Position numbers and translations under genes: made by a program. From Carcharhinus amblyrhynchos (lineage: Eukaryota), in contig OZ336872.1 of NCBI GenBank assembly GCA_965287045.1, positions 119,350,001-119,414,000 of the forward strand: 64,000 nt of DNA, written 5' to 3'. How positions within the stretch are numbered: position 1 is the stretch's first letter; each line of letters begins with the position of its first letter. Shown in pieces: positions 5,931 to 47,703 of this stretch. The notes beneath the pieces are model-generated. The model was not told the DNA's origin. It made no database searches and saw nothing but the letters and a program-made list of their open reading frames with translations.

Positions 5931-6857
5931 GTGCCCCAGGGGTCGGTGCTGGGGCCTCAGCTTTTTACCATTTATATAGATGATCTGGAGGAGGGAACCG
6001 AGTGCAGGGTGTCGAAATTTGCTGATGACACCAAGATTGGGGGAACGGCAAATTGTGCGGAGGGTGTGGAGAGTCTGCGGAAGGATCTAGATAGGCTGGG
6101 CGAATGGGCCAGGAAATGGCAAATGGAATTTAATGTTGGCAAGTGTGAGGTGGTCCACTTTGGTAGGAAGAATGGTAGGAAGGACTATTACTTACGTGGC
6201 GAAAAACTGCAGCAGGCAACGGTGCAGAGGGACCTCGGGGTCCTTGTGCATGAGTCGCAAAAACCCAGCTTGCAGGTGCAGCAGGTGGTCAGGAAGGCGA
6301 ATGGGATGCTGGCCTTCATAGCGAGGGGGATTGAATATAAAAGTAGGGAGGTCTTGCTGCGGCTGTATAGGGCATTGGTGAGGCCGCAGCTGGAGTACTG
6401 TGTGCAGTTTTGGGCGCCACACCTGCGCAAAGATATTTTGGCCTTGGAGGGAGTGCAGAGGAGGTTTACTAGGCTGATACCGGAGTTGAGGGGGTTGAGC
6501 TATGAGGAGAGGCTGAATAAACTAGGCTTGTACTCGTTGGAGTTTAGAAGAATGAGGGGAGATCTCATTGAGACGTATAAGATGATGAATGGGATGGATA
6601 GGATAGAGGTGGAGAGACTCTTCCTGCTCAAAAAAGACAGTAGGACTAGGGGGCACAGCCTCAAGATAAAGGGGGGGCGGTTTAGAACGGAGTTGAGGAG
6701 GAACTTCTTCACTCAAAGGGTGGTGAATCTCTGGAATTCTCTGCCCGTTGAAGTGGTGCAGGCTGCCTCGCTAAATATTTTTAAGATGCGGGTTGATGGG
6801 TTTTTGATAAGAGAGGGGATTAAGGGTTATGGGGAGAGGGCGGGAATGTGGAACTGA
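5931..6857 (+). pseudogene. CR1 ORF2 reverse transcriptase fragment (5'-truncated, no true start)
   Basis: PQGSVLGP, SKFADDTK, WQMEFNVGKC, RDLGV, LVRPQLEYCVQFWAP, FFTQRVVNLWNSLP motifs. Confidence 0.95.
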
Positions 6858-12027: not shown

Positions 12028-12454
12028 ATTTCACTGACAGACGTTAAATAAATCTTTATACCATCCAAATTATTGGGCAGTTCTGGTGAGGCAGTGTCAA
12101 CAACTGTAAAGAAAATGGGATCCAATCTCACCAAGGGTCATGGTGAGTAACCTTTCAGGTTCCAGCATAAAACATGTTATCATAAGTCTATCTCTTGATA
12201 AAGGCCATCACTGCACTGGTTGACCTCCTGAACACTTCCTTCTGAATTGTCTCAGACTTGTATTTGTTCATTTGAGGTGGTGGAGGGACTTTGGAACCCA
12301 TGGCCTCACTGGACTGTGCACCTTTGGTATAAAAGCTGTAATTTAAATGCTAATCATGAACACGAGTGAAAATATATTGCAGTGGACATTTGATAACACC
12401 GTACTTTCCTCCTGATTAACTATTAAACCCCTTCCACAAAGTGCTTAAAGTTAA

Positions 12455-12550
12455 TGATGAAGGAGCAGTGCTCTGAAAGCTTGGGCTTGTGCTACCAAAT
12501 AAACCTGTTGGATGTTAACCTGGTGTTGTGAGACTTCTTACTGTGTTTAC
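12455..12550 (+). mobile_element. Penelope-like pLTR fragment with decayed hammerhead core
   Basis: TGATGA-A-GGAGC-AGT-GCTCT-GAAAGCTT followed by CAAATAAACCTGTTGGA..TAACCTGGTGTTGT...CTGTGTTTAC, homologous to 19625-19719. Confidence 0.8.
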
Positions 12551-18182: not shown

Positions 18183-18195
18183 GACTCCTTGAACT
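18183..18195 (+). repeat. Left target-site duplication (13 bp)
   Basis: GACTCCTTGAACT, identical at 19750-19762. Confidence 0.92.
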
Positions 18196-18253
18196 CAGTA
18201 AAAAGTCTGACAACACCAGGTTTTAGTCCAACCGATTTATTTGATAGTAAACG

Positions 18254-18287
18254 CACAAGCTTTCGAGGTTTCCCTCTTCGTCAGGTG
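18254..18287 (-). ncRNA. Minimal type-I hammerhead ribozyme (PLE-type)
   Basis: CAC-CUGACGA-A-GAGG(GAAA)CCUC-GAAA-GCUU-GUG: stem I CAC/GUG, intact core, stem II with GAAA tetraloop, palindromic AAGCUU in place of stem III. Confidence 0.75.
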
Positions 18288-18337
18288 AATGGAGAGTTCT
18301 GGCCTCGGACAGGCATATAAAGCACAGACAGTTTGAT

Positions 18338-19567
18338 CAAGAGGAGAGCCGGTGGATGTGGTCTTTCTGGATTTTTCAGAAGGCGTTTGACAAGGTACCT
18401 CACAAGAGGTTATTGCAGAAGGTCAGGGGACATGGAGTTGGGGGTAGGGTGTTAGCGTGGATAGAGGATTGGTTGTCAAATAGGAGGCAGAGAGTGGGGG
18501 TCAATGGGTGCTATTTGGATTGGTGGTTGGTGACTAGTGGGGTGCCCCAGGGGTTGGTGCTGGGGCCTCAGCTATTTACCATTTATATAGATGATCTGGA
18601 GGAGGGAACCGAGTGCAGGGTGTCGAAATTTGCTGATGACACCAAGACTGGGGGAAAGGCAAATTGTGCGGAGGGTGTGGAGAGTCTGCAGAAGGATCTA
18701 GATAGGCTGGGCGAATGGGCCAGGAAATGGCAAATGGAATTTAATGTTGGCAAGTGTGAGGTGGTCCACTTTGGTAGGAAGAATGGTAGGAAGGACTATT
18801 ACTTACGTGGCGAAAACCTGCAGCAGGCGACGGTGCAGAGGGACCTCGGGGTCCTTGTGCATGAGTCGCAAAAACCCAGCTTGCAGGTGCAGCAGGTGGT
18901 CAGGAAGGCGAATGGGATGCTGGCCTTCATAGCGAGGGGGATTGAATATAAAAGTAGGGAGGTCTTGCTGCAGCTGTATAGGGCATTGGTGAGGCCGCAG
19001 CTGGAGTACTGTGTGCAGTTTTGGGCGCCGCATCTGCGCAAGGATATTTTGGCCCTGGAGGGAGTGCAGAGGAGGTTTACTAGGCTGATACCGGAGTTGA
19101 GGGGATTGAGCTATGAGGAGAGGCTGAATAAACTAGGCTTGTACTCGTTAGAGTTTAGAAGAATGAGGGGAGATCTCATTGAGACGTATAAGATGATGAA
19201 TGGGATGGATAGGATAGAGGTGGAGAGACTCTTCCCGCTCAGAAAAGACAGTAGGACTAGGGGGCACAGCCTCAAGATAAAGGGGAGGCGGTTTAGAACG
19301 GAGTTGAGGAGGAACTTCTTCACTCAAAGGGTGGTGAATCTCTGGAATTCTCTGCCCGTTGAAGTGGTGGAGGCTGCCTCGCTAAATATTTTTAAGACGC
19401 GGGTTGATGGGTTTTTGATAAGAGAGGGGATTAAGGGTTATGGGGAGAGGGCGGGAAAGTGGAACTGAGCCACGACAGATCAGCCATGATCTTATTGAAT
19501 GGCGGGGCAGGCTCGAAGGGCTAGATGGCCTACTCCTGCTCTTATTTCTTATGTTCTTATGTTCTTA
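18338..19567 (+). mobile_element. Young 5'-truncated CR1-clade LINE
   Basis: Starts at ...RGEPVDVVFLDF/QKAFDKVPH (1-bp frameshift near 18372-18376), FADD motif, (TTCTTATG)n tail. Confidence 0.97.
18356..19468 (+). pseudogene. CR1 ORF2 RT fragment, 370-aa ORF
   Basis: QKAFDKVPH, PQGLVLGP, KFADDTK; N-terminal MWSFWIF arises from a frameshift that removes the motif-A Asp. Confidence 0.93.
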
Positions 19568-19620
19568 TCTCTAATCTGTCTGTGCTTTATATGCTCTGTC
19601 CGAGGCCAGAACTCTCCATT

Positions 19621-19654
19621 CACCTGACGAAGAGGGAAACCTTGAAAGCTTGTG
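19621..19654 (+). ncRNA. Minimal type-I hammerhead ribozyme (PLE-type), second copy
   Basis: CAC-CUGACGA-A-GAGG(GAAA)CCUU-GAAA-GCUU-GUG; one C>T turns the core-proximal G-C pair of stem II into G-U. Confidence 0.72.
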
Positions 19655-19749
19655 CGTTTACTATCAAATAAATCGGTTGGACTAAAACCTGGTGTTGTCA
19701 GACTTTTTACTGTGTTTACCCCAGTCCAACGCCAGCACATCCACATCAT

Positions 19750-19762
19750 GACTCCTTGAACT
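19750..19762 (+). repeat. Right target-site duplication (13 bp)
   Basis: GACTCCTTGAACT. Confidence 0.92.
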
Positions 19763-20054
19763 ATCAGGACCTCTGATTCCTGGACTGGAGGTGAAATTCT
19801 CCCAAGCCCCACCAGCAGCTCGATGGCAGGCATAGTAGGAGAATATGCTGGGATGTTCAAACATAGATTTGATGCTGGTGTGAATCCACAGCAAGATCTT
19901 CCCCCTATGGTAGGTTAGAAAACTCACCAGGAGACAGCATGAACCTCAGTTACACCTTGTTAATGGGATGCAGATGAAGACCTAGTTCCCTACTCCAGAT
20001 CCTTCACAATACCAGTGGGAAAAGACTCTGACATGAAACACATTTGGTACATCA

Positions 20055-20401
20055 CTGAGGCATACAAGATGATCAGAGGGTTAGATAGGGTGGATAGTGA
20101 GAGCCTTTTTCCTCGTATGGTGACAGCTAACATGAGGGGACATAGCTTTAAATTAAGGGGTGGTAATTATAGGACGGATGTCAGAGGTAGGTTCTTTACT
20201 CAGAGGGTAGTAAGGGCGTGGAATGCCCTGCCTGCAGCAGTTGTGGACTCGCCAACTTTAAGGGCATTCAAATGGTCAGTGGATAGGCATATGGACAACA
20301 TTGGAATAGTTTAGATTAGAGGGTCATTAGATTGGTTCCACTGGTCAGCGCAACATTGAGGGCCGAAGGGCCTGTACTGCGCTGTAATGTTCTATGTTCT
20401 A
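20055..20401 (+). mobile_element. CR1/HER1-like 3' fragment
   Basis: EAYKMIRGLDRVD...RGHSFKL...FFTQRVVRAWNALP and TTCTATG tail. Confidence 0.9.
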
Positions 20402-21109
20402 TCATGGTGGGCAAATGTCAAGACTCATCTGAACAATGCCTGGGGCTGCCTCCGGACTTCAGGATGGAGTTACCCTCAACCTGCACTCTAGAACACCACA
20501 ACACTGGGTCTGGGGAGCATCTGCAGTGGACGTTCCAGATCTGGTGTCCTGGAGCAGGTCCTGTTTCCAGCCTCAGAATGTTTCTGGAAATCCATTCTCA
20601 TTCCCAGGAGGTCCATCTCTCCAGAGTGTTCCCAGAGATCGATCTTCATTTTCAGGAGGTCCACCTTCAACCTTCAATAGTGGATCAGTGATTTTGGGCA
20701 ACTTTTCGATATGGCCTTCCAGACACAATGGTGGGCTAGGCGCTTGTCCCATCACTGAATAAAGCGTAATTAATGAGGTTGGGGCCAGAAGATGTGGCAT
20801 ATTTTTCCACCGGTTATTGCTGTGGAAAACACGCCCTGTCCCTGCCTCCGCCATGGCACTCAGTCTCTGAAGTCTTCTGGAACTTTTTTTTTGTTGACTG
20901 GCTGCTCTCTAAACCACCACTTTCCACCAGTGTGAGAGGCAGATGGCCTCGCCTGCAGCCAATCAACACCCATTGAGGCGTAACTTGGCTACGGGGCAGT
21001 CAAAGTTGGCAGGGATGTGGGGATGTGTTTCTTGCCAACTCTTTGGTTGGCGGGAAATGAGACCCTCCCATCTGAGGAATTCAGGCCTTAGTCTGTATTC
21101 CGTTGTAAC

Positions 21110-46544: not shown

Positions 46545-47703
46545 CTGGATCCACTACAATTCAACTGCCACCACGACAGGTCCACAGTAGATGCCTTCTT
46601 CCTGGCCCTACACTCAACCCTGGAATACCTAGACAACTAAGACACCTATGTCAGAGTCTTATTTATTGACTACAGCTCAGCTGTCAACATCATTATTTCT
46701 ACAAAACTCATCTTCAAACTCTGTGGCCTGGGGCTCAGCTCCTCCCTCTGCAACTGGATCCCAGACTTCCTAACCCACAGACCACAATCAGTAAGGATAG
46801 ACAACAACACCTCTTCCACAAACATCCTCAACACCGGTGCCCCATAAGGCTTTGTCCTCAGCTCCTTACTATACTGATGACACCACTGTAGTGGGTCGTA
46901 CCTCAAACAATGACAAGATGGAATACAGGAAAGAGATAGTAAATCTGGTGAACTGGTGCGACGATAATAACCTCTCCCTCAATATCAACAAAATGAAGGA
47001 CATAGTCATTGATTTCAGGAAGTGTTGTGGAGGAAGTGCCCTGTCTACATCAACAGGGATGAAGTGGAAATGGTCAAGAGCTTCAAGTTTCTCAGTGTCC
47101 AGAACACCAACAACCTCTCCTGGTCCCTCCACACCGAGGCTATAATCAAGAAAGCACACCAACACCTCTACTTTCTCAGAAGACTGAGGAAATTTGGCAT
47201 GTCAGCCACGACTCTCACTAACTTTTACAGCTGCACCATAGAAAGCATTCTTTCTGGTTGTACCACAGCTTGGTATGGCTCCTGCTCTGTCCAAGACTGC
47301 AAAAAACTACAAAGGATCGTGAACGAAGCCCAATCCATTACGCAAACCAACCTCCCTTCCACTGACTCTGTCTAAACTTCCTGCTGCCTTGGAAAAGCAG
47401 CCAACATAATCAAGGACCCGTGCACCCCGAACATTCTCTCTTCTACCTTTTTACATCAGGAAAAAGATACAGGTCTGAGGACATGTATCAACCGACTCAA
47501 GAACAGCTTTTTCCCTGCTGCCATCAGACTTTTGAATGGACCTACCTCGTATTAAAAGTGATCTTTCACTACACCCTGTAACACTACATTCAGCACCCTC
47601 TTTTTTCCTTTTCTATGTACAGTATGTACTGTCTGTATAGTGCACAAGAAACAATACTTTTCACTGTATATTAATAATGTAACAATAATTAATCAAATCA
47701 AAT
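46545..47703 (+). mobile_element. Rex1/Babar-clade LINE, 5'-truncated with frameshifts
   Basis: YTDDTTVVG..LVNWCDDNNLSLNINKMKDIVIDFRK; HLYFLRRLRKFGMS..FYSCTIESILSGC.TAWYG; (ATCAA)n tail. Confidence 0.92.

What the first reader, a model, noticed from the sequence alone, without database searches (positions are those of the whole stretch)
18254..19654. Two minimal hammerhead ribozymes on opposite strands
Seen: CAC CUGACGA A GAGG GAAA CCUC GAAA GCUU GUG on the minus strand at 18254-18287, and the same with CCUU on the plus strand at 19621-19654. Core CUGANGA and GAAA are intact, stem II is closed by a GNRA loop, stem I is only 3 bp, and stem III is reduced to the palindrome AAGCUU with predicted cleavage after CUU. 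Known: PLE minimal type-I hammerheads have this form and are thought to cleave as dimers via the palindrome. Inference: transcripts from either strand, including a host pre-mRNA, would carry one ribozyme. The extra A after CUGACGA and the CUU triplet are non-canonical, so activity is uncertain.
Basis: partly seen in the sequence, partly recalled or inferred. Interest (0 to 1): 0.7.

Follow-up and report, generated by a model that had tools for sequence, protein, structure and literature searches.

The report
Penelope fold-back insertion split by LINE
The two ribozyme motifs are the standard tail-end feature of one mirror-image insertion of a very common jumping gene, which a second jumping gene likely split later, and in RNA they are predicted to be zipped shut against each other, so they likely cut nothing here: an ordinary leftover.

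Summary
The motifs are real and at the stated places, but they are not two independent ribozymes. They lie in the two inverted arms (140 of 144 letters alike) of one 1,554-bp Penelope-like element (PLE) insertion, 18196-19749. It has a 37-nt one-sided tail and a 13-bp target duplication, and one public run holds the empty site. The genome has 1,799 exact copies of the motif and 41,728 looser ones. Longer relatives encode an 893-aa RT plus GIY-YIG protein with a Neptune-type linker. The 'extra A' is a published, conserved feature of PLE hammerheads (235 of 235 motifs here). The plus copy has lost the conserved G10.1-C11.1 pair, likely by CpG decay. A read-through RNA of either strand is predicted to bury its hammerhead in a duplex of about -260 kcal/mol, with no dimer partner in cis. 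The centre is a young CR1-type LINE 3' fragment, most likely a later insertion. An apparent excess of such inserts at the fold-back junction (6 of 9) did not replicate (2 of 40, 1.8 expected). The layout is published, and this scan noted the same thing before in other genomes. Ordinary; interest low.

The parts
18183..18195 (+). Left copy of the 13-bp target-site duplication GACTCCTTGAACT
   Evidence: the empty site with one copy is seen in run X8
18196..18334 (-). Inverted, tail-less, 5'-truncated pLTR arm of the PLE
   Evidence: 140 of 144 identical to the right arm; matches positions about 2847-2986 of the 3,024-bp unit from L137
18254..18287 (-). Minimal type-I hammerhead motif, family-typical sequence
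   Evidence: 1,799 exact genomic copies
18335..18339 (+). 5-nt linker GATCA at the LINE 5' junction; may hold a 3-nt duplication (ATC) of the target
   Evidence: sequence; LINE relatives read GGAT-AGAGG here (table 7). The duplication reading is inferred
18340..19566 (+). 5'-truncated CR1-type LINE: C-terminal RT frame still open, 3' UTR, intact (TATGTTCT)n tail
   Evidence: RVT_1 E=8.6e-19; 13 of 1,210 letters off the majority of close copies; the name CR1 is recalled from its motifs, no call names it
19567..19712 (+). Direct, 5'-truncated pLTR arm of the PLE
   Evidence: two differences from the majority of the closest copies, at 19575 and 19643
19621..19654 (+). Minimal type-I hammerhead motif with G10.1.U11.1 in place of G-C (C to T at CpG, 19643)
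19713..19749 (+). 37-nt PLE 'tail', present on one arm only, running up to the start codon of the element's ORF
   Evidence: in L137 this sequence continues into the 893-aa ORF
19750..19762 (+). Right copy of the target-site duplication; its first 3 letters also match the element's RNA

Best explanation
The two hammerhead motifs are the pLTR motif of one fold-back Penelope-like insertion bounded by a 13-bp target duplication, which was likely split later by a CR1-type LINE, and both motifs are predicted to be inactive at this locus. Shown: inverted arms, one-sided tail, duplication, empty site, family membership, LINE fragment. Inferred (integration): the PLE endonuclease cut the two target strands 13 nt apart; both ends primed reverse transcription on element RNA at two start sites 37 nt apart; both cDNAs stopped after 140-180 nt and were joined head to head. 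The template still held about 60-100 nt beyond the hammerhead cut site, so it was uncleaved or re-ligated there. Inferred (LINE): a young CR1 then inserted by its own priming at the AATCT site at or next to the junction, using the short match between its tail and the target. Inferred (RNA): the motif serves the parent element, where tandem units give two sense copies that can pair through AGCU; here any read-through RNA first makes the antisense arm and forms a 139-bp duplex.
For: Arms and duplication. Empty site in run X8: after 18195 the contig continues with 28 of 30 letters of window 19763-19792. Inverted arm in 22 of the 30 closest copies, 19 of those 22 with an 11-14-bp duplication. 59 of 85 unbiased loci are fold-backs, 58 of the 59 with one tailed and one tail-less arm. 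Parent ORF with RVT_1 and GIY-YIG, in tandem units. Layout published (PMC3846280, PMC8557442); both strands cut and extended, and two start sites bounding the tail (PMC11167929). The same LINE sits inside PLE arms with PLE sequence on both sides in 38 of 40 replicate cases; it clusters at tail-like sites (10 of 20 at unit positions 2752-2755; four loci at 2839-2841). Of 41 in-arm cases, 23 have a 2-9-nt duplication and 12 lose 5 nt or more, so a weak duplication here is normal. The LINE-arm junction was found once among 40 scored of 806 candidates. Folding: motif fully paired in the arm duplex, -264 and -260 kcal/mol.
Against: No allele with the PLE but without the LINE was seen, so the order of events at this locus is inferred. 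In the first search 6 of 9 LINE inserts lay within about 10 nt of the junction against 7.8% expected (p=1.5e-5; 5 of 8 without this locus, p=1.3e-4), and pooled 8 against 2.5 expected (p=0.004). Arm divergence (about 1% each) and LINE divergence (1.07%) are alike and do not order the two events. No cleavage assay or stranded RNA data. A transcript that starts inside the LINE fragment would carry an unpaired plus-strand motif.
Confidence: 0.85

Rival explanations
1. The LINE fragment was captured during PLE integration: the free 3' end of one PLE cDNA primed copying of a CR1 RNA from its tail, and the product was joined to the other arm, so the 1,554 bp went in as one event.
For: The LINE tail abuts the arm exactly, no PLE sequence continues on its 5' side, and the ages are alike. 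At least six other loci have the LINE at the junction with no clear PLE continuation or only about 10 nt of it (L152, L157, L160, L161, L227, L229). Pooled excess 8 against 2.5. pLTR-bounded capture of other DNA is described in rotifer PLEs (PMC3846280, passages).
Against: Two independent windows gave 2 of 40 at the junction, 1.8 expected. The first set contains the index locus and one locus from a site-targeted search. None of 59 unbiased fold-backs has more than 60 foreign letters at the junction. The tail abuts tailed and tail-less arms alike. The same site takes LINE insertions with PLE on both sides (L150, L164 with ATCT duplicated).
Confidence: 0.15
2. The motifs act here as ribozymes: transcripts of either strand, or a host pre-mRNA, are cut after pairing in trans with another family RNA.
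For: The minus copy has the family-typical sequence; tens of thousands of copies could supply partners; stem II covaries across subfamilies (41 of 44 Watson-Crick, 8 of 10,000 shuffles reach it); an anole PLE hammerhead cleaves when its protein is added (PMC11167929).
Against: The arm duplex outweighs the cleavage-type dimer by more than 240 kcal/mol, and that dimer (-14.1, -9.1) is less stable than the misfolded dimer (-19.9, -14.9) or two monomers. The plus copy has lost G10.1-C11.1. Covariation reflects selection on parent elements, not on this copy. PLE minimal hammerheads were inactive as monomers and weak as dimers, and no cut ends were seen in anole RNA-seq (PMC4209133, PMC11167929). 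No host exon found.
Confidence: 0.05
3. The fold-back arose by self-priming on an antisense template rather than by priming from both target strands.
For: Proposed for head-to-head PLE repeats in PMC3846280 (passages).
Against: The two arms stop at unrelated points and are joined with small overlaps or fillers; in vitro both target strands are cut and extended (PMC11167929). Not tested directly here.
Confidence: 0.2

Closest known systems
[quoted passage not shown]
   Same: Type I layout, no real helix III, palindromic 15.2-16.2, extra nucleotide between 9 and 10.1, G10.1-C11.1 (minus copy), thousands of dispersed copies, pairs on opposite strands already reported.
   Different: Helix II is 4 bp (7-8 bp in Schistosoma), contiguous helix I 3 bp; opposite-strand copies are 1.37 kb apart because of the LINE (100-700 bp in the paper); sharks are not named in the parts read.
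EN+ PLE insertions with an inverted 5'-truncated copy, one-sided 30-40-bp tail and TSD (PMC3846280; PMC8557442)
   Same: Head-to-head arms, 37-nt tail on one arm, target duplication.
   Different: Only pLTR stumps are left, no ORF; duplication 13 bp (8-10 bp in the rotifer examples); a LINE fragment fills the junction.
Neptune clade of PLEs (linker as defined in PMC8557442)
   Same: CX4CxxC linker between RT and GIY-YIG in the parent ORF.
   Different: No tree was built; Nematis has the same linker.
Poseidon element of Anolis (PAc; PMC11167929)
   Same: Tail, hammerhead in the pLTR, template that runs past the hammerhead cut site.
   Different: In PAc the ORF starts inside the hammerhead and RT starts 111-118 nt into the ORF; here the start codon lies about 97 nt after the cut site and the tail ends at it.

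Membership tests
PLE minimal type-I hammerhead | Core CUGANGA and GAAA with NUH cut site | tested here: met
   triplet CUU, H17 = U in 202 of 235 family motifs
PLE minimal type-I hammerhead | Extra nucleotide between 9 and 10.1 | tested here: met
   A in 235 of 235 motifs; feature listed in PMC4209133
PLE minimal type-I hammerhead | G10.1-C11.1 pair | tested here: inconclusive
   met in the minus copy, G.U in the plus copy; GC 179, GU 27 of 208 motifs
PLE minimal type-I hammerhead | Helix II kept by compensatory change | tested here: met
   pair 2 is A-U in 6 and G-C in 5 of 11 variants seen at least twice (variants ending in CpG-decayed T left out); shuffle 8 of 10,000, which ignores kinship; an earlier run on 7 variants gave 130 of 5,000
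PLE minimal type-I hammerhead | Palindrome at stem III | tested here: met
   AGCU, sequence; dimer fold can be drawn
PLE minimal type-I hammerhead | Self-cleavage as a dimer | not testable with these tools
   needs an assay
Rfam hammerhead families | Match to a covariance model | tested here: not met
   no hammerhead family among 6 matches at E up to 10
EN+ Penelope-like element | Single ORF with RT and C-terminal GIY-YIG in the parent element | tested here: met
   893-aa ORF in L137: RVT_1 E=5.3e-10, GIY-YIG E=4e-5, above cut-off; L137 is a sister subfamily, 91% alike in the arm; closer copies carry the EN half
EN+ Penelope-like element | Tandem units forming pLTRs; inverted truncated copy; one-sided 30-40-bp tail; TSD | tested here: met
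Neptune clade | CX2-5CxxC linker between RT and EN | tested here: met
   residues 755-763 of the L137 ORF
Neptune clade | Placement in the RT tree | not tested
   no tree built
CR1 clade LINE (centre) | Non-LTR RT, short 3' UTR ending in a microsatellite, 5' truncation | tested here: met
   the clade name is recalled, no tree built
Non-LTR retrozyme | Tandem non-coding repeats, each with a hammerhead in the same direction | tested here: not met
   arms are inverted and come from an ORF-bearing element; definition from bioRxiv 10.64898/2026.07.22.740005

The most novel reading that the evidence does not exclude
LINE reverse transcriptase patches the PLE integration intermediate: CR1 RNA is copied from the free end of a PLE cDNA and bridges the two arms, giving composite PLE-LINE-PLE units under one target duplication. 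This would show that the two arms are made separately and meet at an open break.
Probability: 0.15. Interest if true: 0.45.

Novelty: new member of a known kind. Interest (0 to 1): 0.12.

Why it matters
As a single locus, little: it is one of tens of thousands of dead PLE ends. The family has some use. It is young and abundant, a sister subfamily has an intact ORF in identical tandem units, and the regular tailed plus tail-less fold-backs with 11-15-bp duplications bear on how PLEs integrate, which is still open. Capture of LINE RNA at the junction would be a new handle on that step, but it did not replicate.

Tried and rejected
Rfam scan: no hammerhead match. Two independent ribozymes: rejected, one insertion. 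Amplifying composite: the LINE-arm junction matched in full only here among 40 scored candidates, and a pattern for that site found 2 other loci, each with its own structure. Junction hot spot for the LINE: suggested (17 matches, 15 loci; 3 were the PLE's own variant, 1 unclassified, 3 in the inverted arm and set aside as biased; 8 left plus L152), not replicated (the first 30 of 82 matches gave 25 loci, 5 of them not inside a PLE; 22 matches gave 20 loci). Dating by divergence: no order; arms may also be homogenised. Host gene: 111 of 152 stop-to-stop frames of 75 aa or more scanned against Pfam, only RT and ALKBH8_N passed a cut-off; short exons would be missed, so intron status is unknown. 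Luense et al. 2016 was not held and is cited only through a review. Paper searches: Penelope + shark + hammerhead ribozyme gave 1 review, seen as a listing only; CR1 + nested insertion + Penelope + palindrom + LINE gave 0; the search on cut-site triplets gave nothing used. Supplements were not opened and may list shark motifs.

Full report
Observation. Both motifs are present as described. The window comes from a 2.92-Gb genome; its repeats look shark-like (recalled, no call names the organism). The exact 34-mer occurs 1,799 times and a looser pattern 41,728 times, with reversed controls at 0. Rfam has no model that reaches it.

Anatomy. The motifs lie in inverted arms alike at 140 of 144 letters, 18196-18334 (minus) and 19567-19712 (plus). 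The right arm alone continues for 37 nt. A 13-bp duplication flanks the whole at 18183-18195 and 19750-19762. In public run X8 one contig (depth 12) follows the left flank to 18195 and goes on with 28 of 30 letters of window 19763-19792: this is the empty site. Runs X1, X4, X6 and X10 hold the filled left junction. Between the arms, 18340-19566 is the 3' end of a LINE with an open RT frame (RVT_1, E=8.6e-19) and an intact microsatellite tail; I call it CR1-type from recalled motifs.

Family. The 40 best-scored copies of the arm are 96-100% alike. Upstream of the arm, longer copies encode the C-terminal half of a PLE protein. A sister subfamily, 91% alike in the arm, has an 893-aa ORF in identical tandem 3,024-bp units (L137), with RVT_1, GIY-YIG and a CX4CxxC linker, which PMC8557442 (passages) gives for Neptune and Nematis. 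Of the 30 closest copies 22 have an inverted arm and 19 of these an 11-14-bp duplication. Of 85 loci covering the first 100 exact matches on contig C1, 59 are fold-backs, 22 single arms and 4 false pairings; 58 of the 59 scored as one tailed and one tail-less arm. This layout is published (PMC3846280 and PMC8557442, passages), and so are hammerhead pairs on opposite strands (PMC4209133, parts 1-2 of 4 read).

The ribozyme motif. The extra A is in 235 of 235 motifs harvested from all loci, the cut-site base is U in 202, A in 30, C in 2 and G in 1, and helix II pair 2 switches between A-U and G-C across subfamilies. PMC4209133 lists the extra nucleotide, G10.1-C11.1 and the palindrome as conserved, and reports no activity for a monomer and low activity for dimers. 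So the motif is under selection in the parent elements. At this locus the plus copy has G.U at 10.1-11.1, a C-to-T change at a CpG seen in 27 of 208 motifs, which fits neutral decay. On either strand the antisense arm is transcribed first. The predicted fold of the whole element pairs 34 of 34 (plus) and 33 of 34 (minus) motif bases with the other arm, and the duplex is -264 or -260 kcal/mol. The cleavage-type dimer scores -14.1 and -9.1, below the misfolded dimer. No host exon was found (111 of 152 frames scanned), so the pre-mRNA idea has no support, though short exons would be missed.

How it most likely arose. Shown in vitro for an anole PLE (PMC11167929, parts 1-2 of 4 read): both target strands are cut and extended, two RT start sites bound the tail, uncleaved RNA is the main template, and the hammerhead cuts only with protein. 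Inferred here: a staggered cut 13 nt apart, priming from both ends at start sites 37 nt apart, and joining of two short cDNAs. Both arms keep 60-100 nt beyond the cut site, so the template was uncut or re-ligated there.

The LINE in the middle. I tested later insertion against capture at integration. The same LINE lies inside PLE arms with PLE on both sides in L064, L068 and L150, and another LINE does in L096. It favours sites that resemble its tail: A follows the tail in 30 of 31 junctions, this locus included, 10 of 20 inserts in one window fall at unit positions 2752-2755, and four loci, this one included, share 2839-2841. Of 41 in-arm inserts 23 show a 2-9-nt duplication and 12 lose 5 nt or more, read from alignment ends. 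The first search put 6 of 9 inserts within about 10 nt of the junction against 7.8% expected; two further windows gave 2 of 20 and 0 of 20, against 1.8 expected in all. The pooled excess (8 against 2.5, p=0.004) rests on the window that raised the idea, and I cannot fully explain it. Later insertion is the better reading; capture stays open at about 0.15. The composite has not spread.

Comparison and verdict. It works like, and meets the testable features of, a PLE minimal hammerhead in a fold-back insertion of an endonuclease-bearing PLE, probably Neptune. It is not a retrozyme array (bioRxiv 10.64898/2026.07.22.740005: abstract and Results part 1 of 2 read). PMC6765202 was seen as passages; Luense et al. 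2016 was not seen. After my reading was fixed, a look-up showed eight earlier notes of this scan on the same kind of insertion in other genomes, one of them also split by CR1; a look-up near this place showed none. New member of a known kind; interest 0.12.

Noticed in passing
window 12448-12550 (+): Older, decayed pLTR remnant of a related PLE subfamily, 83% alike over 77 nt; its hammerhead core has lost C3.
   Followed up: partly
window about 19990-20402 (+): 3' fragment of a different, older LINE subfamily with its own tail, 240 bp right of the element.
   Followed up: no
window 5931-6857 (+): Another RT-bearing LINE frame (RVT_1); one search found a second young LINE copy in the window, 97.9% alike, probably this one.
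   Followed up: no
window, many places (families D1-D20): Abundant short repeats on both strands that look like tRNA-derived SINEs (recalled, not tested).
   Followed up: no
window 47013-47375 (+): ALKBH8_N match, E=5.9e-13; likely the end of a retroelement ORF (recalled), not checked.
   Followed up: no
L137:1646-7910: Tandem PLE units 100% identical to each other, with one intact 893-aa ORF: a possibly active sister subfamily.
   Followed up: partly
window 18195, run X4: The flank contig stops exactly at the end of the duplication while a short contig crosses into the element; this sample may hold both the filled and the empty allele. The empty branch was not listed.
   Followed up: partly
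L163 and L172 (L159): L163 holds only about 35-45 nt of LINE tail inside an arm; L159 holds about 420 nt of unrelated DNA joined to a LINE 3' end with a 4-nt duplication, perhaps a LINE-tailed non-autonomous element.
   Followed up: no
L059, L074, L086, L106, L108: Single tail-less arms flanked by short, partly repeated target copies: insertions from the second start site alone.
   Followed up: no
L164:512-1695: Arms 99.3% alike that share changes absent from most copies seen, around a LINE 8% off the young majority: another subfamily, or arm homogenisation.
   Followed up: no
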